Under the pieces are notes generated by a model. The model saw only the letters and a program-made list of their open reading frames with translations, searched no databases and had not been told where the DNA came from. Below are positions 128 through 55,532 of a stretch of 55,806 nucleotides of DNA, piece by piece. The translations under genes were made by a program, and so were the position numbers. Every line of letters begins with the position of its first letter. Within the stretch, counting starts at the first letter, position 1. The stretch covers positions 1-55,806 of IMG/VR virus record IMGVR_UViG_3300018890_000004; one strand, written 5' to 3'. This stretch comes from a virus. Its lineage: Duplodnaviria > Caudoviricetes.

Positions 128-478
128 ATGACCAACGAGCATTTGTTAAATATGATAAGGTTGATAACTGACAAGATTTCTAACGTTAGGATGATTCTAG
201 AAGGTGGCAACCCTGCAACGTCTAGAACAGATTCCATAATGATATCTACTATCAATCCACAGTTTAGCTTTAAGCATCTGTCAGAAAAAGCTGAGCAAAT
301 ACTTATTCATCAACACAAACGGCTTCAAGATTATGTAATTGAGGCAGCGCTTAGAGGGTTGGAAATATCCCCTATGCTTCAAAGCGCTTACGGTCGCTCT
401 GAGAGAATACCTGACTATAGCGCTTTTACCCTAGAAGCGGGGGATGATGATTACAGTGAAACACTTTACCAATTTTAA
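77..478 (+). CDS. hypothetical phage protein
   Basis: 133-aa ORF with GAGG SD before a GTG start, in an operon with the 55533-55763 gene across the junction. Confidence 0.75.
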   Translation: MYKIHKSADGSEMLIAQMTNEHLLNMIRLITDKISNVRMILEGGNPATSRTDSIMISTINPQFSFKHLSEKAEQILIHQHKRLQDYVIEAALRGLEISPMLQSAYGRSERIPDYSAFTLEAGDDDYSETLYQF

Positions 479-485
479 GGAACTT

Positions 486-731
486 ATGATAGACCAAAAC
501 GCGGTAAGAAACGCAGTTACTACAAACGATGAAATATGGCTAAGACTTGCAAGCTCGGGCGAGGTTCTGGTAGATGACATTCATGTTGTCATAAGTGACC
601 TTCTATCTGCTCTAGACAATGATAGAGACGACGTTGGACGCGATACGCTAGTAGAAGCTATAGGCTCGCTGGTAAAAGCTTCAAGAAAATATCACACAAG
701 CATACTAAGAAGAGAGGAACAAAATGATTAG
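486..731 (+). CDS. hypothetical protein
   Basis: AAGGA SD before ATG 486. Overlaps the next start. Confidence 0.7.
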   Translation: MIDQNAVRNAVTTNDEIWLRLASSGEVLVDDIHVVISDLLSALDNDRDDVGRDTLVEAIGSLVKASRKYHTSILRREEQND

Positions 732-1014
732 ATATACAGTAGCTACTAGAGATAAACTGCAAAAGCTAGATATTGAAGTAGAAATATACTACAGCCTGAT
801 TAACAATAACTGGGTGCTGGATAAAAACTACGCTACCAGTTTTACCAATCGTGATGAGGCGTTAGGGCTTAAAAAGCTACTAAACAGAGACGGATTGCAT
901 ATTGTGTCGGTTGATGATTACGGTGTAAACAATGACCCTGACTTACTAGAGAATGAAATTCCATACTTCCCACCTGGAATGAAAGGTATTGATGAAAAAT
1001 TCATGAGAGAATAA
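724..1014 (+). CDS. hypothetical protein
   Basis: GAGGA SD, coupled to the upstream ORF, followed by a terminator. Confidence 0.75.
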   Translation: MIRYTVATRDKLQKLDIEVEIYYSLINNNWVLDKNYATSFTNRDEALGLKKLLNRDGLHIVSVDDYGVNNDPDLLENEIPYFPPGMKGIDEKFMRE

Positions 1015-1035
1015 AGCTGCTTTACTAACCACCCA

Positions 1036-1068
1036 CCCCCGCTTCTACAAAAGGCGGGAATTTTTTTA
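1036..1068 (+). terminator. intrinsic terminator built on a CCCCCGCTT motif
   Basis: CCCGCTT-ctaca-AAGGCGGG hairpin followed by a T7 run. Confidence 0.65.
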
Positions 1069-1077
1069 TCTGGACTC

Positions 1078-1106
1078 TTGACAATCGTCTAGATGATTGT
1101 TAGTAT
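1078..1106 (+). promoter_or_regulatory. sigma70-type promoter with 18-bp palindromic operator in the spacer (type copy)
   Basis: TTGACA-17-TAGTAT containing CAATCGTCTAGATGATTG. Related copies start at 1977, 2641, 2931, 3264, 4275, 5417, 8218, 14846, 16405, 19347, 19869, 55481 (+) and lie at 44920-44948, 46075-46103 (-). Confidence 0.9.
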
Positions 1107-1130
1107 AGAGAAAGTTAAGAGGAAAGAACG

Positions 1131-1460
1131 ATGAACTTCAAACAGCTAAAAGATTCAACCCGCTTAGAGACAGGCAATTTGACAAACGAGCAAATCAAAC
1201 ACTACTTTACAAAAATTACATTTTTCTTTGATGATGCTCATAAGGTAAAATTAGATTTAAGAAAAATTGCTCACTGGGAAATTGTTAAGCGTTATGCGCT
1301 AAGATTGAAAACCCTTTTCCAACAAGATACCATGCCAAAAGTTGCCCCAATTGGTTACGCTGCCAAAACCAAAGAGTACTACAAGCATACAACAACCCCT
1401 ACAGGACGCGGTGTAGCTGCGCGTGTTGCCGAAGAATTTACAAGGATGGGAGTAAAATAA
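1131..1460 (+). CDS. hypothetical early protein
   Basis: Directly downstream of promoter 1078, GAGGA SD. Confidence 0.8.
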   Translation: MNFKQLKDSTRLETGNLTNEQIKHYFTKITFFFDDAHKVKLDLRKIAHWEIVKRYALRLKTLFQQDTMPKVAPIGYAAKTKEYYKHTTTPTGRGVAARVAEEFTRMGVK

Positions 1461-2002
1461 TGGGTGAGTTCTACTTTGTTGATGGACACGTTGAAGTTTG
1501 GACAAATCAAGGTAATATCTTCCTAGTTTCGCGGGAAGATGTTGATTTAGTTGCTAATCAGCTATGGTATAAAACTAAAAACGGATATATGGTAAGAACT
1601 GTTAAAGCGGGGGGATGTAAGAAAAAAATGATATATCTTCACAAAGTTATTGCCGAGCGTGTTTATGGTAATATTCCCCCCGCTTATCAAGTAGATCACA
1701 TTGATGGGGATAAGCTCGATAATAGACGGCAAAATTTAAGGTTAGCTACGGTTAGCGAAAATGGTTTTAATAGAGGTGCAAACAAAAATAATACATCTGG
1801 GTATAAGGGTGTGACATGGCATAAGGTTGCAGAAAAATGGAGTTCTAAAATAGAGATAAATTTTGTAACTAAAAATTTAGGGTTGTTTGACGACCCCATT
1901 GTTGCAGCCCAAGTCTACGATGTGGCTGCCAAAATGTATCATGGAAAATTTGCCCGATTAAATTTTTCAAATCCTCTTGACAAACGTCTAGATGATTGTT
2001 AG
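1460..2002 (+). CDS. HNH endonuclease with C-terminal AP2 domain
   Basis: HNH motif VDHIDGDKLDNRRQNLR followed by the AP2 signature SGYKGVTW...KW...LGLF...AAQVYD.AA...HG.FA.LNF. Confidence 0.92.
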   Translation: MGEFYFVDGHVEVWTNQGNIFLVSREDVDLVANQLWYKTKNGYMVRTVKAGGCKKKMIYLHKVIAERVYGNIPPAYQVDHIDGDKLDNRRQNLRLATVSENGFNRGANKNNTSGYKGVTWHKVAEKWSSKIEINFVTKNLGLFDDPIVAAQVYDVAAKMYHGKFARLNFSNPLDKRLDDC

Positions 2003-2038
2003 TATATAAATATAGAACACAAACGGAGCCGAAAAACG

Positions 2039-2332
2039 ATGAAAAGCTTAACACCAGCCGAAAAATTCAACTTCTCTACACCATCTGTAATTGCTGCACT
2101 AGACACCGCAAAGCCAGTCCTCTGGAGAAAAGCATCACCTAGAACAAAATACAATCTGGACTCCACAAAAGTTGTTGACATAGTTCGTAGCCATGAGTTA
2201 AACCTTATTCTTGATATGCCAGAATGGGAAATAGAAGAAAATGAAGAAGGATTCATTGAAACTGACGCTGTATGCTCAGTAGAAGGCTACCAAGCATACG
2301 TTGAACAGTGTGTAATTAACTACTATTCATAA
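2039..2332 (+). CDS. hypothetical early protein
   Basis: Downstream of promoter 1977, GGAG SD. Confidence 0.75.
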   Translation: MKSLTPAEKFNFSTPSVIAALDTAKPVLWRKASPRTKYNLDSTKVVDIVRSHELNLILDMPEWEIEENEEGFIETDAVCSVEGYQAYVEQCVINYYS

Positions 2333-2376
2333 AAGCGGGGGGTTAACCCCCATACAAAAAATTTACGGAGAAAATC

Positions 2377-5821: not shown

Positions 5822-6283
5822 AGAAGCGGGGGGTGGGGTGGTGTAACACGATTCTCAATAAGACAATATTGTAACACACGATAGAATAAGCATTTCCAAG
5901 TTTTTCCAGAGTTTTCCAAGTTTTTCCAAATCTTACTATTGAGAAAACCCATATACAGCAATGCTTTTGAGTGTAATTTCCACGTTTCCAAGTTTTCCAC
6001 CTATTCCATATATATTTTTATTTTATATATTCAATACACACGTACACTGATTTACCACTTTTTACACATAAAAACATACTATTCACGCGCAATGGAAGGA
6101 TTTTTTCTTGGAAACGTGGAAATCCTTACCCAGCAAGGGTTATAAGTTGGAAAAGTCTGGAAATACCTGGAATTTTTCTGGAAAACTTGGAAATGCTTAT
6201 CCAGTAAGGCTTCTGAACAGGTAGTGTTTTTGTACTAGTTATAAGCTGTTATTATAGGTTGTGACCACCCACCCCCCGCTTTT
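5822..6283 (+). repeat. iteron cassette copy A (putative replication origin)
   Basis: AAGCGGGGG, then phased TTCCA iterons, an AT-rich core, phased TGGAA iterons and CCCCCGCTT. Homologous to 28095-28564 and 51025-51514. Confidence 0.85.
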
Positions 6284-7664: not shown

Positions 7665-7733
7665 AAAATCCCCCGCTTTAATAATCTAAAGCGGGGGCGA
7701 CTAATCCATTTTTCAATCCAAGGTAATTATATC

Positions 7734-9392: not shown

Positions 9393-9523
9393 AAAATCCC
9401 CCGCTTCTTACTCAAAAGCGGGGGGCTGACTAACACTTGTTCTTTGAAGATTCAAACTCTAGCATAACACATTTAACCTTGTGATGTCACTATCACAGGG
9501 TTTTTGTTTTGTCAAGAGTAGAA

Positions 9524-12951: not shown

Positions 12952-14685
12952 ATGTTAAAGAAACTTACAGGATTATCAGGTAAACCTTTCCTTGGCGATG
13001 AAATTGACCAACTGGCGGTAGAAGTTATTCAAAAGCGGTTTATACAAGCAGCTTTGATGATATCTGCTGCTGCATTTCCTATCACTGCGGCATTTGTTCC
13101 AAACCAGCCACAGCCTTGGAAACTAGGTCAACTGGGTTTAGGTTCTTTGTTGGGTCTTGCCTCTGCTTACGTGTCTAAACAGCGTGAAGAAGGAGAAATA
13201 AGATATGAAAGCAATTTGAAGCTTAACCGTTCGGTCTATAAGCATGAAGTTACAAACAGGTACGCAAAGGAGCAAATGATAGGAGATGTAGCGCGTGATG
13301 CCTCTGTAAAACGCGCACTGGTTCAAAGTGTAGACGCTATAACTTTACACGGAGTATTTGCATATGCAGAAAGATTTGGGTTGCCACAAGGATTGTTTAG
13401 CGACCTTGTACCAGCACAGCCCCCCGCTTCTGAAGATGAGGTAAAAACAGCCAGAGAGTTAAAAAATATAGGTATCGCTTCGCCAAATCAAGATTTAATT
13501 GATACTCACATAGATAAAACTGCTGCTGCTGTTATTCGGTCAATGGCTGCTAAATATCCTGATTATGTCAGAATAGATGGTCGTTGGGTGCTTGAGCTTA
13601 TCGAGTCATCAACAGAGCATAAAATGGGTAAGCGAGCTAATCACCACTTTTTGATAACTGCTGAAACCCAAGCAGGCAAGTCAACGCTAGCTGGCGTTTT
13701 GGCTCGTGGCATAGCTCAACGTAGCCAAGCTCCTGCTGTTGTTGCTGGTCATGATGCTAAAAAAATTCCAGGGATGAAAGATATTACAAAATGGTTGTGT
13801 CAATTTACGGAGGGATATAAAATTGACGGTTATGTTAACTCTCAAAAATGGGCTACTTTCCTTAGCGGACTTATGGATGAGCAATTTGAATTAGGTTCAG
13901 AAGCGGGGGTGACTATGGAGGGGGTGAGAGAGTTGGTAATTATACAGGATGAACTTAATACCATTTTTGGAGGTGGTAAAGGTTTACCCGGAAAAATAGA
14001 ACAAAAAACAGCAGAAATGTTACAGGGTATTTGGCTGTACTTGGTAACAAACTATGCAGGGTTAAAAACTCACGGGATTTTTATGGGGCAGTCACCATTG
14101 TCGGGTGACACAGGGTTTAGCAGACCGTCTTTGAAAAATCTATGTTTTATTGCCATGGGTCAAAATTCATCATACATATTGGATAACCCTAAAAACTTCT
14201 TGAGCCATACAAATGATGAGGTTTTAAAAGTCTTATCCACAGCTTGTGAAATGTTTGAGAAAGAGGAGCTTAGGTACGCTTTGGTACGCCCTACACGTGG
14301 TAACGCCTATGTGGCTATAATCCCCGAATTTGACACTGAAGGCATCTTAAACGGCAACCTAGACAGCCTAGATGTTGATTCTGAAGAAGTGGTAGATGAT
14401 GATGAACCTGAAACCGTAGCACCTCAAAAAGCGCCAGTGGCAAAAGTGGAAACACAATCACCAAAAGTTACTGCGCCATGGGAAACCACACCACCCCCCG
14501 CTTCTGAGTCTTCAGATGTTAACTTGATATTTGCCAAAATGAAATCCTGGATTGAAGAGTGTTACCTGCAATACGGTAGATATCCAAGACCGGAGCATAT
14601 CAAGCAAGTTTGGGAGGCAGAAACAAAAACGATACTTTCTGAAACAACTTTACAGTATTTACTTGAAAAGTTGAATTTAAGATGA
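12952..14685 (+). CDS. membrane-anchored P-loop ATPase (FtsK/HerA/VirD4-like)
   Basis: Two N-terminal TM segments, Walker A AETQAGKST, Walker B LVIIQDE, IFMGQS motif, Pro/acidic linker and small C-terminal helical domain. Confidence 0.75.
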   Translation: MLKKLTGLSGKPFLGDEIDQLAVEVIQKRFIQAALMISAAAFPITAAFVPNQPQPWKLGQLGLGSLLGLASAYVSKQREEGEIRYESNLKLNRSVYKHEVTNRYAKEQMIGDVARDASVKRALVQSVDAITLHGVFAYAERFGLPQGLFSDLVPAQPPASEDEVKTARELKNIGIASPNQDLIDTHIDKTAAAVIRSMAAKYPDYVRIDGRWVLELIESSTEHKMGKRANHHFLITAETQAGKSTLAGVLARGIAQRSQAPAVVAGHDAKKIPGMKDITKWLCQFTEGYKIDGYVNSQKWATFLSGLMDEQFELGSEAGVTMEGVRELVIIQDELNTIFGGGKGLPGKIEQKTAEMLQGIWLYLVTNYAGLKTHGIFMGQSPLSGDTGFSRPSLKNLCFIAMGQNSSYILDNPKNFLSHTNDEVLKVLSTACEMFEKEELRYALVRPTRGNAYVAIIPEFDTEGILNGNLDSLDVDSEEVVDDDEPETVAPQKAPVAKVETQSPKVTAPWETTPPPASESSDVNLIFAKMKSWIEECYLQYGRYPRPEHIKQVWEAETKTILSETTLQYLLEKLNLR

Positions 14686-14932: not shown

Positions 14933-16333
14933 ATGGCTAACAAGTACGCTCTATCCTCACTTTTCCAATCTATCGCTTCTTCTGATTTTCCATACGACCA
15001 CCCAGAAAACGCTTATCAATCTGGAAACGCTACAAAAGTATTTATTGACGGTTCTGTAGTTGACCCTGAAGAACAGTATATTTTTGATATCTTTCTACAC
15101 TCTCTTGAGATTGACCCTGAAACGGTTGATAACTATGGTGTAGCTACTTATGAGAATGACGTTTTTACTGGTCACTGTCCGGCGTTCTTTGGCATACGTG
15201 ACGGTCAAATGGGAATCGTTATAGGTTCAAGAAATGATAAGTTTGGAACCTCAGACACGTTTGTTCCCTGTACAGTAGAGCGTGAAGAGGTTAAGCGTGG
15301 AAAAGCTAAAACATGGGAATACGTCTACACTGTAAACGGTACACCTATCGTTTTAGAAGAGAAAACCGATAACAAGGGTGTAGGACAAGGTAAGTATTTT
15401 CTAACTGTACAACACGTTGCTGTTGATGAGGCTAATGATTATCGTGAAGAATATCACTTTTCTTTACCCTTTCTAATTGCTAAGCGTGAATTTCAAAAAG
15501 GCGAGGTTGAAAAACTCTTCTATACTGGAAAGTTTGAAGAGTGTGTACGCGAGTTTGGAACAGGCAGCAGCAAGATTTGGCTAGCTTCTAACAAAGCTTT
15601 TACTAACTTGTTTAGAGAGAAGTCTTTCCCCAAAGGTGGCGTGTTGTTGATTGCAACTCAAGGTGAATACAAAATCACCCTGGCTGGTAGTCACCCAAAC
15701 ATCACATCTGACATTCACCAAACAGACTGGCAGATTGTTGCATCTTCTCACCCTGAGTTGTTGGTGAGCTATCAAAATAAAGACAAGCAATGGGATATGT
15801 GTACACTGTCAGAAGCCACTAACATCCAGTTTTCGGCAGCACAAGTTAAGAACGAGGGGTACACTTGGTTAATCAAGCGTATCAGTGAAGCAAAAGGTAA
15901 GCTCAATCCTGATTTAAGCATTCCTGCTGGCTTGCCTGCAATTGAAACAGAATTGATTGACAGAAACTTGTATACTGGTTACGTGCTTATTCATATCGTC
16001 GAACCATCGAGCGTTAAGATTGAAAACAGCCCAGTAAACACAGTTACAGACATTCTTGACCGCGCTTTGGTGAAAGTTAAGCCTTATCCTCATTTGATGC
16101 CTTCTCTGCAAGAAAACGCTGAAAGCTTTCGTCAAGCAGCTTTACCAACAGGAGGTAGAGCGATTGCAAGAAAGCCTATCACAAGACAAGTTACACCAGC
16201 ATCCACCCCCGCTTATACAGCAGAACAGGAAGCAGAAGCATACGCTTCTATGTCAATGAATTCTGGCTACCCTGTAGCACCTTCTACAGTGCCTACCAAT
16301 GGTAAAATTGCTGACCCTTTAGGCGACTTCTAA
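14933..16333 (+). CDS. hypothetical protein, possibly ssDNA-binding
   Basis: 466 aa, beta-rich, with a flexible tail ending DPLGDF. Own operator-promoter, upstream of the helicase. Confidence 0.75.
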   Translation: MANKYALSSLFQSIASSDFPYDHPENAYQSGNATKVFIDGSVVDPEEQYIFDIFLHSLEIDPETVDNYGVATYENDVFTGHCPAFFGIRDGQMGIVIGSRNDKFGTSDTFVPCTVEREEVKRGKAKTWEYVYTVNGTPIVLEEKTDNKGVGQGKYFLTVQHVAVDEANDYREEYHFSLPFLIAKREFQKGEVEKLFYTGKFEECVREFGTGSSKIWLASNKAFTNLFREKSFPKGGVLLIATQGEYKITLAGSHPNITSDIHQTDWQIVASSHPELLVSYQNKDKQWDMCTLSEATNIQFSAAQVKNEGYTWLIKRISEAKGKLNPDLSIPAGLPAIETELIDRNLYTGYVLIHIVEPSSVKIENSPVNTVTDILDRALVKVKPYPHLMPSLQENAESFRQAALPTGGRAIARKPITRQVTPASTPAYTAEQEAEAYASMSMNSGYPVAPSTVPTNGKIADPLGDF

Positions 16334-19922: not shown

Positions 19923-21896
19923 ATGTTACAAGGTGTAAGAGATTTGGCGGTATGGTCAAAAGTAAAGAATACTAAAGGTGTTCATGTTGACCGTATAGAC
20001 ATCGATGAAGATTTGTTAAATATTTATGATTTTGACCTTGAGCCTATACCCCATTGGGAGCCGTCTGTAAAGCTTCCCCTGTACGATGAAGTCTCAAAGG
20101 TCTTTTTTGATATTGAAACACATAGTGATGATGCAGATGACCCTAAATCATCTTTGAAGCCTGAAAAATCCCGTATAACCCTTATAGGGTTAATGAATGA
20201 AAGAGGACGCACCCATATCATCAACTGTGAAGACATGGGGGAACGTCAGGGAATATTGGAGTTTTTCAACATCATTGCTAAGAAAAAACCTACATTTTTA
20301 ACAGGTTTTAACATCTTTAAATTTGACTTACCTTTTATCATTAAACGCTGTGAAATTTTGGGTATCAGTCACCCATTTACAGTGTCTGAAAAGGAAACAG
20401 TAATTGAAAACGCCAAAGAGTTTGGAACGTCCGTAAGATACCAAAATATTTGGTTAGATTGGGCTAAGACTACCGCAATTGTTGACCTTTATCATCAAGC
20501 TTTATTGTGGGATAACGTACAAAGAAAGCTCACACGTTTTGGTTTAAAATACGTACCTCTGCAAATGAAATTGATTGAAGAGGTACCCAAAGAGCTATCA
20601 TACCCAGAGATAAGACAAGCTATTGCAGACTGGGAAGCGGGGGGACGTGATGAACTTATCAAGTACCTAGAATCTGACCTTATACTCACTCAGAAATTAG
20701 GCAATTATCTGATTCCAGATATTTACTATCAAAAACAACTGTTACCACATTGGAATTATCAATCCCTAGGCACTGGCGGAATGGGTACCAAGTGGAATGA
20801 TATTCTGATGACTGCCTATCAAAGCCTAATACATCGCCAAGCACTACGAGTAAAACCTTCATCAGACACAACTACAGATTTTAAGGGTGGGTTGGTTGGT
20901 AGCCGTGCGGGGTTGTACCGTAACGTGTCTAAAATTGACGTGGCTAGCCTTTACCCGTCAATCATGTTACTCTACGGCATTCACAGTTACAAGGATGTTA
21001 AACGGCTAATTCTGGCTATCCTCAAGAACATTTACACCGAACGCTTGAGACTCAAAGCAATAGCTGAAACTAAAAAAGGCACTGAGGAAGGACGCATAGC
21101 CAAGCAAAGACAAGGTGCTTTAAAAATTCTCATTAACTCTGCTTATGGGTTTTTGGGAACAAAAAACAAAGAGTTCAATGATTATGTTGCGGCTGCACTG
21201 GTCACGGCGTACGGTCGAGCCATACTGAAACGAATGATTGAGCTTTGCATAGAAGCGGGGGGTGTCCATGCCAACTGGGACACAGACGGCTTGTATTATG
21301 CCACTAACGACCCTGATTTTAAGGAAAACGATAGAATATACAACTACATCCAAAAACACCTGCCAGAAGGCATAAACATAGAGCATGAGGTGCAAGCAGC
21401 AGGTTTTTACGTTCCCCCCGCTTCAGATAAGGATGCAGAAGATGGCGAGGGACTGCGGAAAAACTACATAATTGTGTTTCGCAATGGAGAGGTAAAAGCT
21501 AATGGCAAGTACAGAAAGCGTGATAAGTGCGGGTTGGAAAAAGATTTTATACCCAACGTGGTTAAGGCATACATAGAAAAGCCTGAAAATGCTAAAAAGT
21601 ACTATCAGCAAGTACTTACTCAACTAATGACACGCTCATATGATACCGAAAAGCTGAGCATAACACGCAAAATTAAAGTAGGGGAGAAAAGACTGGTAGA
21701 ACTGGGTATCGGGCAAGAACAGGATGTAGTGACATACTACAAAGCCCCCGACAAACCGATAATAGGTAAGCGGGGGCAAGTACTCAAAAAAGTTGAGGTT
21801 ATGCACTCAACAAGCACGGCTGATATTGACTGGCTGTATTACATAAACATGGTTCAGGAAATGTGGGCAGAATTCGAGTCAATGCCTAAATATTAA
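19923..21896 (+). CDS. polB: family B DNA polymerase with 3'-5' exonuclease
   Basis: Exo FDIET and FDLPF. Pol DVASLYPS, KILINSAYG and DTDG. Confidence 0.95.
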   Translation: MLQGVRDLAVWSKVKNTKGVHVDRIDIDEDLLNIYDFDLEPIPHWEPSVKLPLYDEVSKVFFDIETHSDDADDPKSSLKPEKSRITLIGLMNERGRTHIINCEDMGERQGILEFFNIIAKKKPTFLTGFNIFKFDLPFIIKRCEILGISHPFTVSEKETVIENAKEFGTSVRYQNIWLDWAKTTAIVDLYHQALLWDNVQRKLTRFGLKYVPLQMKLIEEVPKELSYPEIRQAIADWEAGGRDELIKYLESDLILTQKLGNYLIPDIYYQKQLLPHWNYQSLGTGGMGTKWNDILMTAYQSLIHRQALRVKPSSDTTTDFKGGLVGSRAGLYRNVSKIDVASLYPSIMLLYGIHSYKDVKRLILAILKNIYTERLRLKAIAETKKGTEEGRIAKQRQGALKILINSAYGFLGTKNKEFNDYVAAALVTAYGRAILKRMIELCIEAGGVHANWDTDGLYYATNDPDFKENDRIYNYIQKHLPEGINIEHEVQAAGFYVPPASDKDAEDGEGLRKNYIIVFRNGEVKANGKYRKRDKCGLEKDFIPNVVKAYIEKPENAKKYYQQVLTQLMTRSYDTEKLSITRKIKVGEKRLVELGIGQEQDVVTYYKAPDKPIIGKRGQVLKKVEVMHSTSTADIDWLYYINMVQEMWAEFESMPKY

Positions 21897-44950: not shown

Positions 44951-45358
44951 CTAATCTGAATATTTATTGATGATATATATCAACTCCTGTTTTGACTCTG
45001 TAAAGTAAAGTATTATAGCAGATTCCTCGCTCTTGACACCAAAAGTGTAGAACCTTTTTAACACTTTCCAGTTATCATCCTTTAGATATTTATGTTTGAC
45101 TAGACCATCCTCTACACCCCCTTGAAGGTTGCTTAAATCGGGGGGATGACCGGGAACAGGTTTGATATTAAATTGGAAGACCATAGAGTGAAATTCGGGG
45201 GGTATGGTCAAACCTGTAGTTGTGATGTACTGGTTAAATTGCTCTTGCCATTTCCTATAGTTTCCTATCGAGTGTGTCATATTTCCGTATTTCCCAAGCT
45301 GACCGCGTGGTTTGGGATGTGCTTTCATAGGTAGGAAAATTTTTCTTATAGTCATCAA
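44951..45358 (-). CDS. rusA: RusA-like Holliday junction resolvase
   Basis: P.PR at the N-terminus and PDLSNL.GGVEDGL......DDN catalytic motif. Confidence 0.8.
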   Translation of the reverse strand: MMTIRKIFLPMKAHPKPRGQLGKYGNMTHSIGNYRKWQEQFNQYITTTGLTIPPEFHSMVFQFNIKPVPGHPPDLSNLQGGVEDGLVKHKYLKDDNWKVLKRFYTFGVKSEESAIILYFTESKQELIYIINKYSD

Positions 45359-46173: not shown

Positions 46174-47649
46174 TTACCTAGCTGTAATCAGATGGTCGTC
46201 AGTCTCAATAACAGTAGGCTCTGAGGCTGACGGTGTTGCAGGTGGCTCTATAACTGGGATTTCTTCTTCGCTTGCAGTTGCTTCAGGTGCCACAGTGGTT
46301 GCACTTTTGGCATCAGTTACAACAGGTGGTAAAAACTTTTGAGTAGTTGCAGCAAACTTATGAAGCGTTTTGTGGTATTTGTCGTAATTGTCACCGCCAG
46401 CCTCTTTAATATCATCGGCAATTTTAGCGATGTCACTCATAGCAATGGTGACTAGCTCATTAATACCAGCAAACAGTGTGAGAACAGTATCAGCAGCTAA
46501 AACGTTTGTATGCTGCTTAACTAGCTCTAAACTGCTTTCTAAATGCTCCCTAACGTTTTTGACATTTTCAAGTTTTGCCACATCAGAAGGTATGCTGTAA
46601 ACCCGTGAAATAACTTGCTCAGCATCTTGCACATAACGCTCTTTAGTAACAGTAGGCTTGGGAGAAGCGCCACCTGTAGAACCCGGGGCGGGGGGAGTTG
46701 AACCTTCCGGAGAAGTAGAACCAGTACTACCCCCCGCTTTAGCTGCATCATCCTTGGCTTTTGCTTCCTCAGTCAAATCATTAAAATAGTCAATAATAGC
46801 ACTTTTGTAAATGCTGAAGTCTTCAAAAATTTCTACTTTGCCTTCTTTATGCTTTAGAGCGTTTGTTTGAGCCTTTATCCACAATGTGTCTAAATACTTA
46901 TCAATTGATTGATGCAGTTGTTGCTTATCTAAGCCAGGCTCAAACCCTGTTACTTTTTGTATTAGCGTTGCGGCTGCGTCAACACTGATTTTTTCATTTC
47001 TGATATATTCATGAAGCGTTGGGCTTCCATTTTCAATTACCGTGTTATATTGGCTGAGGTTTTGCTTTGTGCGCTTGAACATCAAACAAAGCTTACGAGT
47101 TGCTTCACCTCTAGCTTTCTTTTCATTCATGCCAGATGCAACAAATTCATTTTGAAATTGTATCTTAAGATTATAGGCTAAATTAGCTATATCATAAGGA
47201 TTATGTTTTTTTGTAAAGTCATTGGTTGATACCTGAAAATCAATAGCATCTTCAAGTGTCAACGGTTCTGTAAAGAGCTTATAGGGAACAAGCTTAAAAT
47301 TGTCATCTTTAAGCTCTAAAGTAACTTTGCTGTCTTTTTTCTCTTCACCACCCTCTACTTCTTGTTTTCTTTCAACCCATAACTCAAAAAGCGCTCTAGT
47401 GCGGGTGTTTCCTGAAACAATATATTTTATACCAGTTTCAGGGTCTTGCTCAACTGCAAAAGCCTCTTTTACTTCAATATCATGGTTAGTGTTAACCAGC
47501 GCCACACGCTTTTCAGCAACTGAATCGGTATCTGTAGTTTGACGAATATAAAACTCTGGGCGACAAAAAGCCCAAGTCTTATCTTCAAAAAATGCTTTAT
47601 GTAAATCACCCACTGAAATGTAAAACGTTTCTTCTGATAGTGTAGCCAT
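46174..47649 (-). CDS. ParB-like protein (ParB/Srx N-domain plus HTH)
   Basis: YIVSGNTRTRAL resembles the GxxRxxA patch. Followed by HTH-like KLCLMFKRTKQNLSQY and L..YI...KISVDAA. Confidence 0.65.
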   Translation of the reverse strand: MATLSEETFYISVGDLHKAFFEDKTWAFCRPEFYIRQTTDTDSVAEKRVALVNTNHDIEVKEAFAVEQDPETGIKYIVSGNTRTRALFELWVERKQEVEGGEEKKDSKVTLELKDDNFKLVPYKLFTEPLTLEDAIDFQVSTNDFTKKHNPYDIANLAYNLKIQFQNEFVASGMNEKKARGEATRKLCLMFKRTKQNLSQYNTVIENGSPTLHEYIRNEKISVDAAATLIQKVTGFEPGLDKQQLHQSIDKYLDTLWIKAQTNALKHKEGKVEIFEDFSIYKSAIIDYFNDLTEEAKAKDDAAKAGGSTGSTSPEGSTPPAPGSTGGASPKPTVTKERYVQDAEQVISRVYSIPSDVAKLENVKNVREHLESSLELVKQHTNVLAADTVLTLFAGINELVTIAMSDIAKIADDIKEAGGDNYDKYHKTLHKFAATTQKFLPPVVTDAKSATTVAPEATASEEEIPVIEPPATPSASEPTVIETDDHLITAR

Positions 47650-50341: not shown

Positions 50342-51024
50342 GACAATAATAAAAACAATAATTACATTTTAACAGTACTCAAAAATAACCAATTTTCTAA
50401 TAATTGACTATTTTTGAGTAAAGCAGCTTTATTCAGATTTAACCAGCCTTATCAAGATTATATGTTAACAATTTTCTAACGTAAGAACGCGATATATGTT
50501 CTATCTCTGCAATCTGTTTCTGAGTCATTTTTTCCTCATAGTACATATGTTTTATTCTCCTCACACGGTCAGCTTGCAACATTTTGTCCATAAAATACCT
50601 CCAAATACTGTTGACAAATTAAACTTATTGTGCATAGGGAAACACCATGTTAGTAGCCTTCACCATAGTACTACTTAGTATAAATACTTTCACAATTTAA
50701 TTTATTTTTTTGCATAGTAAAAAGCTTGACAAAATGCACGTGTTATAATATATGAAACCTCTTATGATGGGTGCATATATCAGAAACACTTATATTCCTT
50801 AACTAGGCGTGCAATTACCAAATACATAGGCATAACTTACAAAACCCATGTTTCTAGAGCATGGGTTTTTTTTGGCTTTTAAGGGGGTTCACCCTGCTAA
50901 ACGATGATTGACCCATAAACATAAAAAACCCCTGCTTAAGACGGCTTAGGCGGGGGCTGCTTGTCACTATGGATTGTTGACCGCCAACTGCTTGTGAGAA
51001 TAGCGATAGGCAGAATTATGACAC

Positions 51025-51514
51025 AAAAGCGGGGGTTTGAGGCTGCTTGTAACACATTCTCAATAAGGTTTTACGTACTACATACGCAGCAGTAAGGGTT
51101 TCAGCCCATGCCAGAAACATTTCCAGGTTTTTCCAGGTTTTTCCAAACTTTTCCAAGTTTCACTATTGAGAAAACCCTTATAAAGCGGGGGGTGTGGGTG
51201 TAATTTCCACAGTTCCAAGTTTGAAAGCGAAATCTTATATAGATATTTTTATGAATTTGATACACGTAGATTCCAAAACTAAAAATTCTATACATCAAAT
51301 CATAGTCTTCACGCGCATAGGTTACTAAAAATTCTTGGAAATCTGGAAAAGCCTTGCTGGTAAGGGTTATAAGTTGGAAATGCTTGGAAAAACCTGGAAT
51401 TTTCCTGGAAAACTTGGAAATGCTTGCTGTGTAAGGGTTTCAAAGAGGGTGTACGTTTGTACTAAAAATAAGTCAAACTTATCGTTTATGACCACCCCCA
51501 CACCCCCCGCTTCT
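51025..51514 (+). repeat. iteron cassette copy C
   Basis: Same architecture and shared blocks as copy A (TGTAACAC.ATTCTCAATAAG, ACTATTGAGAAAACCC, TTCACGCGCA, AAGGGTTATAAGTTGGAAA, CTGGAAAACTTGGAAATGCTT). Confidence 0.85.
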
Positions 51515-52133: not shown

Positions 52134-52187
52134 AATTAACCTCAGTGTGTAAGTTATCGTTTATCTAGGTTTCCCCCCGCTTCTGGC

Positions 52188-54713
52188 TTAAAAATCAGCC
52201 TCTTCTGCCACTTCATCACAAGGTAGCTTGATGATGATTCCTTTAAACCCGCGTACAAATTTACCGTCTACTTTTACTTTGCTATCCTTGCCTTTCTCTG
52301 GCATCAGTGACCATGAAATATTGTTGTCTGGTATCTCTGCTTTTTCTCTCAGGAATTGCGGTATTTTTGCGATTTTGCCTTTAATAGTTTCGTTTTGGGT
52401 AGATTCACCAATCTCTGTTTCTAACCATGTTTGGTAGGCGGTCTGCAACTCGTGGTTTGTTACTGTGTTATCTGGGTTGTCGGTGAATTGCAGACATTCA
52501 TTGATAAACATCAACACCTTATCATTTTGTACCAATGACTCTTGAAGTACCGTACGTGCTTCATCTGATTTTGCATAGGTTATGAAGTCCTGTACAGCGC
52601 GTTCGGCATCTTGCATAATAGCCCAATTGAAAATATCTTGGTAAATTTCAGGCTTGCCAAACTCTTCATCAACATCTACCAAGTCGGGGTTATACATTTC
52701 CTTTGTATGCTTTAACAGCACGACGCGACGGCGTATACCCCCATCATCAGAGTTAGGTATATAAAAATGGTCTTGAGTCGCTGTAGTGATACCTGCATAA
52801 AATTTGGCGTTGTAGGACGGTAGTCCTTTTTGTTCAATTTCTATGGTGATGTTTGCGTTGCCCGTCAGTTGCTTGAGCAGTTCCCAGCCTTTAAGGTCTG
52901 TCCTAAACTCATCGATAAACAGTGAAAATAGATTGTCTAGCGATTGATTAGCAAACCTATTTCCAGTGTCTGTCAACGTGTTGCCTCTTGCCGTGTAACC
53001 GAGCGTTCCCAAGCAGTTCTGTATGATTTGTCCTACAACTGTTTTCCCTGTGTTCGGCGTGCCATACACGCACAACATACGCTTTGTTTTGGTAGCTATG
53101 CCTAGACAGTTTACAATTATCCATGACGTGATGGCTTGACGCTGTATATCACTATATTTAATTTCTGTCAACCAATAGTTAAGATATTTAACACCGAGAG
53201 ACTCTTCAGTAACAGCGCGGTAGCTGATTTTACTACGCATAGTATTATAATTTGAGGGGTTGAAATTAGCTACAAATTCCTTTGTCTTGTAGTTAAAATC
53301 CCCGTTAGCCATGGGAATAATATCAGTGTTTCGCATTTCGTCAAAATCGCGCTTATCCTCCACTGAATCATAGCCGTCATAATACTTAATCAGTGAGCAT
53401 ACATAGGCGGCTATTTTTGGCGATGACAGTTCCCCCGCTTCTACCCCGTAATGGTTCTTAAGTGCGTATTTAACACAATCCCTATATACGTTAATTTCAG
53501 AGGGCTTTACGCGCCACACACCCGTTAGAAAATCGTAATAAATGTATCCATCCCTAGCACCCTTTTTAATTATTTTCACATAACTGCTAAGAATAGTCTC
53601 AACCTGCATAGTGAGGCTATCCGTTTTTTCTTTCTTTTTGGCTGCGCGTCGTTCTGCTATTTCAGCGCGTGCGCGGTCAAAATCAAAGCAATCAATTTTA
53701 AACCAACGGGCGATGTCGTCACACACTAGTTGAAAAGTTTCATAGTTACGGTCGTCATTCCATTCTATGCTTCCCCAATTCTTAGCGTGCAGCAAATTGC
53801 CGTAGTGATGCCAATATTTGATGATAGTTCCAGAGATGCCTCCCACTTGGTTAGTAAAGCGGGGGGGATAGTCAGCGTCAGCCCAGTATACGAAAAAGCC
53901 TGAGCCGTAATCTTTTTCTTTGTCTTCTGGACGGTGACCTCCCCACTTGTGAAAATTCTTTTTGTCTTTCGGTTGTTCTTCAAAATTATGGGGATGCAAC
54001 GCATAAAGGGTGTCAACCTCATAACTGTCACAGAGCTTAAGCCATATTTCCTTGTTTATCCACTTCAGCACCTGTGCTGTTATTCCTTCCCCCGCTTCGG
54101 CTGGTAAAGCTGCTTGATTATCTGGCTGTTTATCTTGTCCGTCATATGTTTTTATATCTATACCGTCTAAAGACACCTGCAAGAAAATATCAGGGTCTAG
54201 AGTAGCATTTTCATCTAGTATTGTTACAGAGTTGGCATCATATGCGCCAAAATAAATAGAGCCTGAATGATAGCGTGGGTCAGCATCTTTGTAATATAGA
54301 TTGATAATGACTTTCGCTATGTGTTGGTATTCTTCGGCACTTATGACCTTAGCGAGTTTGAAAACTAGCCTGTGTTTCTCGTTTACACCTGGTTGGTAAG
54401 ATGGGGTGTAGTACCACATACAGGCTTGGCTTGACCATGCCCCCGCCAATGTTTTAGATACTGGCGTGTCGTCGAAGTCTATAAACAGCCATTGAATACC
54501 AGTTACACCCTCTTCATCGGCTCGCCCGACTTTAATTCCTGGTTGAACTGTGTAACCATCTGCTATAATAGTGGCTAAGGCTTGTACATCAACCTTTAAG
54601 GTTTTCCAATATTCAACATTTAACTGCTCATTTGCGGTTTTTTTCAAAAGTTTTTTTGTAATATCGGGGGTGTTTCGGCAAGTATGGTTAACTTGTATAT
54701 CTACTAAACTCAT
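52188..54713 (-). CDS. primase-helicase (AEP/prim-pol-like N-terminus, D5/P4-type SF3 helicase)
   Basis: N-term FIDFD, YYTPS, KHRLVF. C-term Walker A GTPNTGKT, FIDE, LKQLTG, EQKG, GIRRR. Confidence 0.88.
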   Translation of the reverse strand: MSLVDIQVNHTCRNTPDITKKLLKKTANEQLNVEYWKTLKVDVQALATIIADGYTVQPGIKVGRADEEGVTGIQWLFIDFDDTPVSKTLAGAWSSQACMWYYTPSYQPGVNEKHRLVFKLAKVISAEEYQHIAKVIINLYYKDADPRYHSGSIYFGAYDANSVTILDENATLDPDIFLQVSLDGIDIKTYDGQDKQPDNQAALPAEAGEGITAQVLKWINKEIWLKLCDSYEVDTLYALHPHNFEEQPKDKKNFHKWGGHRPEDKEKDYGSGFFVYWADADYPPRFTNQVGGISGTIIKYWHHYGNLLHAKNWGSIEWNDDRNYETFQLVCDDIARWFKIDCFDFDRARAEIAERRAAKKKEKTDSLTMQVETILSSYVKIIKKGARDGYIYYDFLTGVWRVKPSEINVYRDCVKYALKNHYGVEAGELSSPKIAAYVCSLIKYYDGYDSVEDKRDFDEMRNTDIIPMANGDFNYKTKEFVANFNPSNYNTMRSKISYRAVTEESLGVKYLNYWLTEIKYSDIQRQAITSWIIVNCLGIATKTKRMLCVYGTPNTGKTVVGQIIQNCLGTLGYTARGNTLTDTGNRFANQSLDNLFSLFIDEFRTDLKGWELLKQLTGNANITIEIEQKGLPSYNAKFYAGITTATQDHFYIPNSDDGGIRRRVVLLKHTKEMYNPDLVDVDEEFGKPEIYQDIFNWAIMQDAERAVQDFITYAKSDEARTVLQESLVQNDKVLMFINECLQFTDNPDNTVTNHELQTAYQTWLETEIGESTQNETIKGKIAKIPQFLREKAEIPDNNISWSLMPEKGKDSKVKVDGKFVRGFKGIIIKLPCDEVAEEADF

Positions 54714-54843
54714 GACGGTCTCCTTAACTGAATCAAGAACTTTTAAACGCTAGTTGACGCTAGCGTTTTTTTTTGCTATCTTTAGTATATGCGATTGACT
54801 AGATGATTGTCTATAGCTAAGAAAAACAAAGAGAGGTTATGTA

Positions 54844-54990
54844 ATGCCAGTTACAAAGAGAAAGGTGGTAACATTACAGATAGTAATGACTGAACGGGAA
54901 GTTCAATTGTTAACATTGCTTGTAGAAACGCTGGGTGTATCATATAGTGCTATCATTGTTGAATGTGCCAAGCGTGCTATAGAAGACTAA
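54844..54990 (+). CDS. ribbon-helix-helix-like protein (48 aa, not in ORF track)
   Basis: MPVTKRKVVTLQIVMTEREVQLLTLLVETLGVSYSAIIVECAKRAIED, GAGG SD. Confidence 0.6.
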   Translation: MPVTKRKVVTLQIVMTEREVQLLTLLVETLGVSYSAIIVECAKRAIED

Positions 54991-55113
54991 ACACGCATAA
55001 GTGAAAACCGTTAAAAAGCTTATGGGGTAAGCTTTTTAAACAAGTCTGAACCAGTAAAGAAAATCATCAGTGTTCCCAGAGAACCGAAAACATACTTAAA
55101 CTATTGAGAGGTT

Positions 55114-55272
55114 ATGACCATGGCTGAGGGAGTTGTTAAAATGGCTAAAATAAACAAAGAAACTAAAGACAAACTTAAACAAAAGGCTGACGAACGGGGA
55201 TTGACCATGACTGAACTGGTAAAGGAACAGTTACGTCTGTTGTTAAAAGAGAATCAGTTGCCGACTATTTAG
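55114..55272 (+). CDS. ribbon-helix-helix-like protein (52 aa, not in ORF track)
   Basis: ...KMAKINKETKDKLKQKADERGLTMTELVKEQLRLLL, GAGG SD. Confidence 0.7.
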   Translation: MTMAEGVVKMAKINKETKDKLKQKADERGLTMTELVKEQLRLLLKENQLPTI

Positions 55273-55532
55273 GATTATCGTACTATATAGACGATTGTCT
55301 GTATATAACCGTATTTTCACTTACATTAACCATCACTTGCCCCCGCTTCTATTACTAGATAGCGGGTTTTTTTTATTTGTATAAAAATAAAAATTCAAAG
55401 ATGGTATATACCACATTATAACACACTTGTCAAGAGGATATTTACTGCTTTTTAAAAAAAAACTTTTTTGGTAAAGCTGCTTGACAAACGTCTAGACGTT
55501 CGTTAGTATATAGAAAGTTGAGAGACCAGAGG

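What the first reader, a model, noticed from the sequence alone, without database searches (positions are those of the whole stretch)
433..55350. About 80 copies of the non-palindromic motif AAGCGGGGG saturate both strands, mostly inside genes
Seen: by eye I count about 80 exact AAGCGGGGG/CCCCCGCTT sites, extended consensus (GT)AGAAGCGGGGG(G). Examples lie near 433, 1036, 1604, 3544, 10093, 13420, 17797, 21250, 25311, 30961, 35866, 40642, 44524, 49813, 53432 and 55340. A dozen or more variants such as AATCGGGGG also occur. At an estimated 38% GC about 0.1 copy is expected. Orientations are about equal and interleaved, roughly one per 1.4 kb per strand. The motif is read in several frames (PPAS, EAGG, KAGG, KRG, PPL, GSG) in unrelated proteins including polymerase, capsid and portal, so selection is on DNA, not protein. 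Inference: a dedicated genome-wide cis signal. Per-strand spacing fits Okazaki-fragment priming sites for the phage primase (pyrimidine-rich template, purine-rich primer). Alternatives are binding sites for the AP2 proteins or the FtsK-like ATPase, or an uptake/recombination signal.
Basis: partly seen in the sequence, partly recalled or inferred. Interest (0 to 1): 0.92.

Follow-up and report, generated by a model that had tools for sequence, protein, structure and literature searches.

The report
Phage-private DNA word, evenly spaced
This soil-crust cyanophage writes one exact nine-letter DNA word about every 1.4 kb along each strand, as do well-known Anabaena and Nostoc phages with their own versions of the word, and it most likely marks where the phage's own replication machinery starts new DNA.

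Summary
AAGCGGGGG occurs 80 times, 40 per strand, against 0.22 in shuffles. The excess survives codon-preserving shuffles. Spacing on each strand is more even than random.

The word is not private to this record. Syntenic uncultured relatives carry sister words such as GAGGCGGGG. The isolated cyanophages N-1, A-1(L), Elbi, YongM and Dfl-JY23 carry 87-99 copies of TGA(T/C)TCCGGGG with the same statistics.

- The host plasmid pCC7120alpha has 5 copies in 408 kb but 253 HIP1 sites.
- Sites are conserved far above their flanks.
- At orthologous sites N-1 and A-1(L), which share a host, differ by one concerted letter.

Convergent pairs of the word bracket origin-like iteron and AT-rich cassettes here and in A-1(L). 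Nearby sites point towards those cassettes.

My best reading, at about 0.45, is a start or loading signal for the phage's primase-helicase. This is unproven. A 2016 paper noted part of the N-1 pattern as possible promoters or stoperators. Unchecked AI notes from this scan report similar words in at least 23 other genomes.

The parts
435..55348 (.). Lattice of 80 exact AAGCGGGGG sites (extended form T-A-R-AAGCGGGGG-K), 40 per strand

+ strand starts: 435, 1605, 2333, 3201, 5058, 5824, 7689, 9416, 10096, 11094, 11950, 13901, 16670, 17800, 18816, 20635, 21253, 21768, 24676, 25312, 26906, 28096, 30963, 31948, 33413, 34936, 36190, 36956, 39043, 39782, 40604, 41533, 42005, 42769, 44527, 47839, 49816, 51027, 51183, 53857.

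- strand starts: 1036, 1677, 2583, 3544, 4755, 6273, 7670, 8159, 9398, 10207, 12017, 13421, 14495, 16206, 17338, 17988, 19306, 21415, 21938, 24104, 25885, 28554, 30127, 31001, 33041, 33300, 35866, 37115, 38678, 39926, 40642, 41816, 43818, 45603, 46731, 51504, 52174, 53432, 54089, 55340.

The nine AATCGGGGG variants include sites in each of the three largest + strand gaps.
5824..6281 (.). Origin-like cassette A. Word plus GT-rich flank on +, then TTTCCAAG-type iterons, an AT-rich core, inverted iterons, and the word plus flank on -
   Evidence: Sequence read. Sites at 5824(+) and 6273(-). That it is an origin is inference.
51183..51512 (.). Origin-like cassette C, with the same architecture as A. 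A further word at 51027(+) and direct iterons lie just upstream
   Evidence: Sequence read. The longest same-strand runs of the genome (++++ then ---) meet here.
7670..7697 (-). Inverted pair of the word forming a 12-pair hairpin followed by a T run on the - strand (terminator-like)
9398..9424 (-). Second inverted pair of the word, an 11-pair hairpin plus T run on the - strand
52188..54713 (-). Primase-helicase, 841 aa, the candidate reader. N-terminal FIDFDD and KHR motifs look like an archaeo-eukaryotic primase; a P4/D5-type SF3 helicase follows
   Evidence: Pfam DUF5906 3.2e-10 and Parvo_NS1 4.8e-5. NCBIfam TIGR01613, 75 bits, below its 108.7 cut-off. PHROG 36509 'DNA primase' 1.5e-58. The motifs were read by eye. 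Homologues in N1 (27% identity), A-1(L), Elbi, YongM and Dfl-JY23 and, distantly, in G014.
19923..21896 (+). Family B DNA polymerase, part of the replication module shared by all word-bearing phages
   Evidence: 43-45% identity to the N1, A-1(L) and Elbi polymerases, 50% to G011 and 34% to G014.
46174..47649 (-). ParB-like protein (N-terminal 230 aa conserved), shared with the A-1(L) group and G014
   Evidence: Its A-1(L) homologue A1L_85 is annotated ParB family. No Pfam hit here.
14933..16333 (+). Protein of unknown function (PHROG 36548), shared with G011, G014 and the A-1(L) group
44951..45358 (-). RusA-like resolvase, shared with the A-1(L) group and G014
   Evidence: Pfam RusA E 0.0018, below cut-off. 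45-48% identity to N1, A-1(L) and Elbi, 35% to G014.
12952..14685 (+). Membrane-anchored FtsK/HerA-like ATPase with a conserved 60-aa C-terminal helical domain, the rival candidate reader
   Evidence: Weak Pfam DUF87. Sequence. The C-terminal domain is conserved in N1, A-1(L), Elbi, YongM and Dfl-JY23. The motor part is 41% identical to phage CL131, which lacks such a word.
1460..2002 (+).
   Evidence: Pfam HNH_3 1.9e-17; AP2 0.0029, below cut-off. No homologue in the other word-bearing genomes by phmmer.

Best explanation
AAGCGGGGG is this phage's own dialect of a replication signal read by a phage-encoded protein, most likely the primase-helicase. Its fuller form is about T-A-R-AAGCGGGGG-K.

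Proposed mechanism:
- The C-rich complement on the template strand tells the enzyme where to load or start.
- The new primer or DNA piece then begins with the G-rich word.
- One site about every 1.4 kb on each strand supplies start points for discontinuous synthesis whichever way a fork travels.
- Convergent pairs at the edges of the iteron and AT-rich cassettes start the two leading strands across the origin.

Shown:
- The word is real and is selected on DNA.
- It is evenly spaced per strand.
- It is conserved at individual sites in related phages.
- It changes in concert between lineages.
- It is not enriched in a host replicon.
- It is placed in a polar way around origin-like cassettes.

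Inferred:
- The cassettes are origins.
- The act performed at a site is priming or loading.
For: 1. Selection on DNA. There are 80 sites against 0.22 in shuffles. About 2 of the 62 in-gene sites survive synonymous shuffles.

2. Coverage of each strand.
- CV is 0.55 and 0.56, with p <= 1e-4.
- The same holds in N1 (0.43 and 0.65), A-1(L) (0.46 and 0.65) and Elbi (0.63 and 0.47), all with p <= 0.0012.
- Spacing per strand is 1.3-1.6 kb in six genomes (site counts). Bacterial Okazaki fragments are 1-2 kb (established knowledge, recalled).

- pCC7120alpha has 5 CCGGARTCA in 408,101 bp, against 89-99 in 65-69 kb phages. It carries 253 HIP1 sites, about the phages' own HIP1 density.
- One dialect, TGACTCCGGGG, occurs in phages of Nostoc PCC 7120, Nostoc FACHB-596 and Dolichospermum.
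- N-1 and A-1 share a host (abstract, PMC4916379) yet differ by one letter.

4. Site-level constraint and co-evolution.
- Word columns of A-1(L) are 93.8, 95.3 and 94.7% identical to Elbi, YongM and Dfl-JY23. The 30-nt flanks are 76.4, 80.3 and 78.2% identical.
- Of 34 A-1(L) sites aligned to N1, 18 read exactly TGATTCCGGGG, at least 3 more contain TGATTCCGG, and 1 is unchanged.
- Window against G011: sites 37115 and 39926 align exactly to AGGCGGGGG.

5. Link to replication.
- Convergent pairs bracket iteron and AT-rich cassettes at window 5824-6281 and 51183-51512 and at A-1(L) 53288-53775.
- In the window, 16 of 22 sites within about 3.6-4.4 kb of the two cassettes point towards them. This is my hand count; one-sided binomial 0.026.
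- 31 of 40 sites within 4 kb of the densest CGTTAC/GTAACG cluster in A-1(L), Elbi, YongM and Dfl-JY23 do the same.
- In that orientation the C-rich strand is the lagging-strand template.

6. A homologous primase-helicase is present in every complete word-bearing genome examined: window, N1, A-1(L), Elbi, YongM, Dfl-JY23 and, distantly, G014. It was not found in CL131, which lacks such a word.
Against: - No primase described so far, to my knowledge (recalled), needs more than about 3-5 template letters. Nine invariant letters would be unprecedented.
- No call shows priming, binding or an RNA-DNA junction.
- PolB, the ParB-like protein, the RusA-like protein and the PHROG 36548 protein co-occur with the word just as well as the primase does. 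Co-occurrence therefore does not single out the primase.
- The polarity near the cassettes fits equally well a signal read on the leading strand, as Chi and KOPS are.
- The four A-1-like genomes are related, so 31/40 is not four independent tests. The iteron criterion was derived from A-1(L) itself. N1 has no such cluster and no polar run.
- In the window, cassette A alone gives only 7/12.
- In the isolates 35-49% of sites are intergenic, many as inverted pairs 14-18 nt apart. A priming model does not require this.
- G014, whose primase is only distantly related, has a sparser word (31 copies) with no even spacing.
- The ORF sets are crude greedy calls.
Confidence: 0.45

Rival explanations
1. 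The word is a loading or guidance word for the phage's membrane-anchored FtsK-like DNA pump. It would be read by the pump's small C-terminal helical domain, as KOPS, SRS and Streptomyces TraB sites are read. The pump would then handle only phage DNA.
For: - The window, N1, A-1(L), Elbi, YongM and Dfl-JY23 all encode such an ATPase. Its C-terminal 60 aa are its best conserved part between the window and the A-1 group.
- A-1(L)'s copy is annotated DNA translocase FtsK.
- Known FtsK-family words are non-palindromic G-rich 8-mers (recalled).
- CL131 shares the motor but not the C-terminal match, and has no such word.
Against: - tblastn with the window, N1 and A-1(L) ORFs found no FtsK-like homologue in G014, which carries a word.
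- Known KOPS-type words are strongly skewed along a replichore. Here the strands are balanced and alternate.
- Even spacing per strand and the brackets around origin-like cassettes are not predicted.
- Elbi's C-terminal domain looks closer to N1's than to A-1(L)'s by eye, although Elbi shares A-1(L)'s dialect.
- Neither Pfam nor the solved-structure sequence search recognised a gamma-like domain.
Confidence: 0.1
2. The word is a Chi-like signal. It would tame a helicase-nuclease, the host's or the phage's own, so that broken or permuted phage DNA is protected and recombined within about 1.4 kb of any end, while host DNA lacking the word is degraded.
For: - Balanced, evenly spaced sites in both directions suit genomes with circularly permuted ends. 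A-1 and N-1 are reported so (passage of PMC4916379).
- Chi-rich phages exist (abstract of PMC12315714; passages of PMC3784561).
- The word contains AGCGG and often GAAGCGG, the Chi words of Bacillus and Staphylococcus (recalled).
- A 3' flank enriched in G is present.
- The polarity near origin-like cassettes is the one Chi shows if the C-rich strand is the one read.
Against: - The host plasmid is not enriched.
- Two dialects coexist on one host.
- recBCD is poorly conserved in large-genome cyanobacteria, and Anabaena sp. 90 lacks it (passages of PMC5101192).
- Excess over expectation is in the hundreds, against about 2.3 for Chi in E. coli (passage of PMC3784561).
- Nine to eleven fixed letters exceed any known Chi (recalled).
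- No phage nuclease-helicase was identified.
Confidence: 0.12
3. The word is a binding site for another phage DNA-binding protein, such as the ParB-like protein, the PHROG 36548 protein or an AP2 protein. That protein would organise, mark or silence the phage chromosome, with stoperator-like or nucleoid-like binding.
For: - The ParB-like and PHROG 36548 proteins co-occur with the word in all complete genomes.
- Chenard et al. suggested stoperators for the asymmetric N-1 and A-1 motifs (passage of PMC4916379).
- 35-49% of sites in the isolates are intergenic.
Against: - Orientation is independent of gene direction: 33 sense and 29 antisense here, near 1:1 in five isolates. Stoperators are not like this (recalled).
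- A repressor model does not predict even spacing on each strand separately.
- ParB-type dimers bind palindromes (recalled). These genomes have separate palindromic words: AAGCAGCTT occurs 25 times here and AGAGTSACTCT about 35 times in A-1(L).
Confidence: 0.13
4. The words are sites of programmed single-strand nicks made by a phage HNH nickase, as in T5 or phiKMV-like phages.
For: - HNH genes are present (A1L_66 and A1L_73).
- Nick motifs of other phages are asymmetric words. The phiKMV nick consensus, as I recall it, contains ACTCCGG.
Against: - Opposite-strand sites 14-19 nt apart are common. Nicking both would break the duplex.
- The HNH-AP2 protein is not conserved among the word-bearing phages.
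- No raw reads were available to look for ends.
Confidence: 0.07
5. The word is imposed by the host, as an uptake sequence or a repair-driven repeat like HIP1, or it is a functionless mutational drive.
For: - The statistics mirror DUS and USS: balance, even spacing, inverted pairs as terminators, dialects (recalled features).
- HIP1 is carried by related phages at host-like density.
Against: - The host plasmid has 5 copies in 408 kb.
- The same dialect occurs on three host species, and two dialects occur on one host.
- This window has 0 HIP1.
- A drive alone would not space sites evenly.
- The host of this particular phage is unknown and no cyanobacterial chromosome could be scanned. The exclusion therefore rests on the A-1 group.
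Confidence: 0.05

Closest known systems
DNA uptake sequences (DUS of Neisseriaceae, USS of Pasteurellaceae)
   Same: They are 9-12 fixed letters and non-palindromic. Numbers are equal on both strands at about one per kb, and spacing is more even than random. Copies inside genes sit in a few favoured frames. Inverted pairs double as terminators. Lineage 'dialects' differ by one or two letters. These features are recalled.
   Different: Those words saturate bacterial chromosomes and are read by the cell's uptake machinery. Here the word saturates lytic-type phage genomes, is at chance level in a host replicon and follows phage lineage rather than host. Nothing suggests uptake.
Template recognition sites of primases (T7 gp4 5'-GTC, pRN1 ORF904 GTG) and priming signals read by dedicated primases (RSF1010 ssiA/ssiB with RepB', P4 alpha at its ori iterons)
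   Same: They are cis words that fix where a phage or plasmid primase starts. They are needed on both strands and lie at origins. The window's candidate reader combines an archaeo-eukaryotic-type primase with a P4/D5-type helicase. The named systems are recalled, not tested.
   Different: Known recognition is about 3 letters, or a few structured sites per replicon. Here there are 9-11 fixed letters at 80-99 sites. Priming at the word is not shown.
Chi sites and Chi-rich phages (Bobay et al. 2013, PMC3784561; Zheng et al. 2025, PMC12315714)
   Same: An asymmetric word is enriched in phage genomes and acts in either direction on linear DNA.
   Different: Chi is the host's word and is enriched in the host about 2.3-fold, at 0.2 per kb in Rec- phages (passage). 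Here density is 1.4 per kb, enrichment is in the hundreds, the word is not in the host plasmid, and dialects follow the phage.
KOPS, SRS and TraB recognition words of FtsK-family translocases
   Same: They are G-rich non-palindromic 8-mers read by a small C-terminal domain. The phage encodes an FtsK-like ATPase.
   Different: Those words are skewed along replichores or clustered in one locus (recalled). Here they are balanced and alternating. The ATPase does not track the word across genomes.
Asymmetric repeat motifs of cyanophages N-1 and A-1 (Chenard et al. 2016, PMC4916379)
   Same: The passage reports 21 motifs in N-1 with a highly conserved 11-bp region. They are asymmetric and not co-directional with genes. 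That fits TGATTCCGGGG.
   Different: Only motifs within 150 bp upstream of genes were kept, and they were read as promoters or stoperators. I count 92 sites genome-wide, about half inside ORFs. The A-1 motif described, two conserved parts 1 bp apart, fits the palindrome AGAGT-S-ACTCT rather than the word. The figure with the logos is not held, so both identifications are my inference.
HIP1 (GCGATCGC) of cyanobacteria
   Same: It is a hyper-abundant short word found in cyanobacterial replicons and in their phages.
   Different: HIP1 is palindromic and shared by host and phage at equal density. This window has none.

Membership tests
Host-imposed genome-wide word (uptake sequence or HIP-like repeat) | Comparable enrichment in host replicons | tested here: not met
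   For the A-1 group, pCC7120alpha has 5 CCGGARTCA in 408,101 bp against 253 HIP1 sites. This could not be tested for the window's own word, because its host is unknown and no cyanobacterial chromosome could be reached.
Host-imposed genome-wide word (uptake sequence or HIP-like repeat) | The word follows the host species, not the phage lineage | tested here: not met
   The same dialect occurs in phages of three hosts. Two dialects occur in phages of one host.
Primase start or loading signal | Sites available at Okazaki-scale intervals on each strand | tested here: met
   Spacing is 1.3-1.6 kb per strand in six genomes, and is under-dispersed in the four tested (window, N1, A-1(L), Elbi).
Primase start or loading signal | Sites at origin edges and polar orientation next to origins | tested here: inconclusive
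   Convergent brackets are seen. The counts are 16/22 and 31/40. The origins are inferred, and N1 shows no such pattern.
Primase start or loading signal | Primers or nascent 5' ends begin at the word, and the primase prefers its own word | not testable with these tools
   Only assembled contigs of the source runs are held, with no raw reads and no RNA run.
Chi | Read by the host RecBCD or AddAB and enriched in the host genome | tested here: not met
   Passages of PMC5101192 say recBCD is patchy in large-genome cyanobacteria.
KOPS/SRS-type translocase word | Strand skew that switches once at origin and terminus | tested here: not met
   Strands are 40/40 and alternate along the whole genome. 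The same holds in N1, A-1(L) and Elbi. Polarity is seen only within a few kb of the cassettes.
KOPS/SRS-type translocase word | Co-occurrence with the translocase | tested here: not met
   G014 has a word but no detected FtsK-like gene. CL131 has the motor but no word.
Stoperators (cluster A mycobacteriophages) | One orientation relative to the direction of transcription | tested here: not met
   33 sense and 29 antisense here. In the isolates the counts are 21/26, 27/27, 31/29, 30/34 and 25/26.
Programmed nick sites | Strand interruptions at the word in virion DNA | not testable with these tools
   No raw reads were available. Close opposite-strand pairs argue against it.

The most novel reading that the evidence does not exclude
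These cyanophages use a private, sequence-coded replication system. An archaeo-eukaryotic-type primase-helicase would start or load only at a 10-11-letter word, so the genome carries hard-wired start points on both strands. Word and enzyme then drift together into dialects (GAAGCGGGGG, GAGGCGGGG, TGATTCCGGGG, TGACTCCGGGG). Dialects would keep co-infecting relatives, and host DNA, from being replicated by the wrong machinery.
Probability: 0.35. Interest if true: 0.85.

Novelty: new variant of a known kind. Interest (0 to 1): 0.8.

Why it matters
If the reading is right, lagging-strand start sites in these phages are written into the genome as an exact word. They would not be chosen almost at random, as in the textbook systems. 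The word and its reader also evolve together like a lock and key.

That would be the most specific priming code known. It would also be a new kind of self-recognition between a virus and its own DNA.

Even without the mechanism, the comparative result stands. The same signature occurs in A-1(L), N-1, Elbi, YongM and Dfl-JY23, which grow on genetically tractable Anabaena and Nostoc strains. The question can therefore be put to the bench at once.

The word also constrains protein sequences. Here 24 of 29 E/K-A-G-x tetrapeptides exist as carriers of it. It gives a simple marker for sorting uncultured relatives into lineages.

Tried and rejected
Searches for other carriers of the window's word
- Megablast of 9 kb against GenBank phages found no match.
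- A PolB peptide scan of IMG/VR found no relative.
Of these, 108 hold 1 copy and 6 hold 2. Ten whole records of 50-57 kb among them hold 1-3 copies.
- A scan for inverted pairs of the word gave 76 loci: 55 with 2 copies, 20 with 3 and 1 with 4. None is enriched.
- The word is absent from N1, Elbi, A-1(L), Mae-JY02 and Pan4 (0 of 5).

Host search
- The one genome-contig scan (TerL profile) returned 19 loci, all Proteobacteria MAGs and no cyanobacterium. I therefore had no handle from which to scan cyanobacterial chromosomes.
- A host plasmid stood in for the A-1 group only.

Source runs
- There were 3 runs of one biocrust study, all kept as contigs. No RNA holder was listed.
- The laid contigs gave no usable test of nicks, ends or site conservation.
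- A 4.7-kb contig of run X3 matched two 24-26-nt stretches. I could not follow it up.

Ideas dropped
- GCACAGGCA in G014 is part of a 120-bp tandem array, not a dispersed word.
- GAACTGTCACA in L126 forms paired palindromic elements.
- I considered that the word shares a half-site with the palindromic operators. N1 has no such palindrome.
- 'G014 lacks the primase' was corrected by pairwise BLASTP.

Annotation attempts that gave nothing
- Protein atlas for ORF 14933 (best score 0.75).
- PDB sequence searches for the ATPase and the primase.
- Pfam and PHROGs on G014 ORFs.
- I ran no structure prediction. I judged it could not decide between the candidate readers.

Literature
- Full-text searches for the word, its complement and the A-1 and N-1 words found only primers and unrelated sequences.
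- Searches on cyanophage plus iterated, non-palindromic, stoperator or PHIRE terms found only PMC4916379 as bearing on it.
- Supplements were closed. The figures of PMC4916379 are not held, so its motif logos were not seen.

Full report
**What the window is**

The window is a whole IMG/VR virus record of 55,806 bases with direct terminal repeats. It was assembled from a biocrust metagenome.

It encodes:
- a tailed-phage structural module (portal, terminase, tape measure);
- a family B polymerase, an SNF2 helicase and an 841-aa primase-helicase;
- a membrane-anchored FtsK/HerA-like ATPase;
- MazG, ThyX and a RusA-like protein;
- two HNH endonucleases, one with a weak AP2 match.

The primase's best matches among GenBank phages are Nostoc phage N1, Anabaena phages A-1(L) and Elbi, and Microcystis and Pseudanabaena phages. 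One terminase homologue is named after a Richelia MAG. I therefore treat it as a cyanophage. The host itself is unknown.

**The observation**

AAGCGGGGG occurs exactly 80 times, 40 per strand. Dinucleotide shuffles give 0.22.

- The word is unusually sharp. AAGCGGG occurs 81 times and 80 of those are the full word. Only 18 one-mismatch variants exist, half of them AATCGGGGG.
- Flanks add T-A-R on the 5' side and G or T on the 3' side.
- By a crude ORF set, 62 sites lie in ORFs (33 sense, 29 antisense) and 18 between them.
- Synonymous-codon shuffles keep about 2 of the 62 in-gene sites. Codon-order shuffles keep about 0.2.
- 24 of 29 E/K-A-G-x tetrapeptides in the ORF set are carriers of the word. 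The proteins have bent to the DNA, not the reverse.
- Spacing on each strand is under-dispersed, with CV 0.55 and 0.56 against 0.96 for random placement (p <= 1e-4).
- The strands alternate more than chance.
- The AATCGGGGG variants include sites in each of the three largest + strand gaps. This hints that the variant is tolerated.

**It is a family trait with dialects**

A terminase profile brought in uncultured relatives.

- G011 is collinear with window 14.9-42.8 kb at 37-69% protein identity. It has 25 copies of GAGGCGGGG in 25.4 kb, on both strands.
- G015 has AAGCGGGGG and GATGCGGGGG.
- G012 has CCGGAATCGA, 15-17 copies in about 20 kb.
- G014 has CAGGAATCA, 31 copies in 65.8 kb, but without even spacing.

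The isolated cyanophages with a related replication module show the same signature more clearly.

| Phage | Word | Copies |
|---|---|---|
| N1 | TGATTCCGG(GG) | 92 (47/45) |
| A-1(L) | TGACTCCGG(GG) | 89 |
| Elbi | TGACTCCGG(GG) | 99 |
| YongM | TGACTCCGG(GG) | 98 |
| Dfl-JY23 | TGACTCCGG(GG) | 87 |

In N1, A-1(L) and Elbi the per-strand CV is 0.43-0.65 and alternation is strong, for example 69 runs against 46.9 +/- 4.7 in N1.

Phages that share only part of the module have no such word: CL131, Mae-JY02 and Pan4.

- The 408-kb plasmid alpha of Nostoc PCC 7120, host of A-1(L) and Elbi, has 5 matches to CCGGARTCA, near chance by my arithmetic. It has 253 HIP1 sites, the same HIP1 density as the phages.
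- One dialect serves phages of three host species.
- N-1 and A-1 infect one strain (abstract of PMC4916379) yet differ at one letter.
- Site-by-site comparison shows constraint. Word columns are 94-95% identical between A-1(L) and Elbi, YongM or Dfl-JY23, whereas the 30-nt flanks are 76-80% identical.
- It also shows a concerted change. Of 34 A-1(L) sites alignable to N1, 18 read exactly TGATTCCGGGG and 1 kept the A-1(L) form.
- Between the window and G011, most sites have turned over. Eight of the 29 aligned sites have a G011 site within 12 nt, and two align exactly as AAGCGGGGG against AGGCGGGGG.

**What it does**

Two cassettes in the window, at 5824-6281 and 51183-51512, have direct and inverted TTTCCARG iterons around an AT-rich core. 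Each is bracketed by a convergent pair of the word with a G/T-rich extension.

A-1(L) has the same design at 53288-53775, with GTTAC-type iterons.

The longest same-strand runs of the window (++++ then ---) meet at cassette C.

Within a few kb of the two cassettes, 16 of 22 sites point inward (hand count). Around the densest iteron cluster of A-1(L), Elbi, YongM and Dfl-JY23, 31 of 40 do so. Those genomes are related, the criterion came from A-1(L), and N1 shows no such cluster.

In that orientation the C-rich complement lies on the lagging-strand template. A primer copied from it would begin with the G-rich word.

A homologous primase-helicase is present in every complete word-bearing genome, G014 included though distantly. 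Its N terminus carries FIDFDD and KHR, read by eye as archaeo-eukaryotic primase motifs.

PolB, the ParB-like protein, the RusA-like protein and the PHROG 36548 protein co-occur just as well. The FtsK-like ATPase does not.

I therefore favour a replication start or loading signal at about 0.45. The rivals are listed separately.

**What is against it**

- Nothing here shows priming.
- A nine-to-eleven-letter primase code has no precedent I know of.
- The near-origin polarity would also fit a leading-strand signal such as Chi or KOPS.
- Many sites in the isolates are intergenic inverted pairs.

**What is known**

- Chenard et al. 2016 reported 21 asymmetric motifs with an 11-bp conserved core in N-1 and 43 two-part motifs in A-1. 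They limited these to gene-upstream regions and read them as promoters or stoperators (passages). I could not see the logos.
- My full-text searches found no other description.
- Notes of this scan, AI-written and unchecked, describe similar evenly spaced words in at least 23 other genomes. Several of them also guess primase sites.
- Two notes on this genome pointed me to the cassettes.

Noticed in passing
window, whole: GATC is almost absent: 6 sites where base composition predicts about 200 (my arithmetic from the counts). HIP1 and CGATCG are absent altogether. Relative G012 has 0 GATC in 20 kb, while G011, G014 and the A-1 group have normal numbers. This looks like avoidance of a GATC-directed restriction system in some hosts.
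   Followed up: partly
window, dispersed (for example around 50410-50430): A second repeated word is palindromic, about TAAAGCAGCTTTA. AAGCAGCTT occurs 25 times. It is shared with G011. The analogous palindromes are TAAAGAGTCTTTA in G014 (64 copies) and TTAGAGT-S-ACTCTAA in A-1(L) and Elbi (about 35 copies). N1 has none.
   Followed up: partly
window 12952-14685: The FtsK/HerA-like ATPase appears to have two N-terminal hydrophobic helices. Its C-terminal 60-aa helical domain is conserved in N1, A-1(L), Elbi, YongM and Dfl-JY23. Its role in phages of filamentous cyanobacteria is unexplained.
   Followed up: partly
G014 (record of L126), about 3.3-6.5 kb: There is a tandem array of a 120-bp unit with at least 25 copies, carrying GCACAGGCA and CTGCTCAGAAG.
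   Followed up: no
L138 (IMG/VR contig of 101 kb) and phage CL131: Both have very high HIP1 density: 56 CGCGATCGC in 20.7 kb of L138 and 209 GCGATCGC in the 112.8 kb of CL131.
   Followed up: no
window 5893-6256: Contigs of the source run and of a second run show an alternative, diverged version of the core of cassette A and several assembly-graph joints there. This could be strain variation or cross-assembly between the homologous cassettes.
   Followed up: no
window 7670-7697 and 9398-9424: Both word hairpins carry their T run on the - strand although the neighbouring ORFs are on the + strand. They would stop antisense transcription rather than sense transcription.
   Followed up: no
window, neighbouring sites: Convergent neighbours (+ then -) are closer than divergent ones: median 321 against 570 nt here (p about 0.02). 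The same direction holds in N1, A-1(L), YongM and Dfl-JY23 but not in Elbi. This is unexplained.
   Followed up: partly
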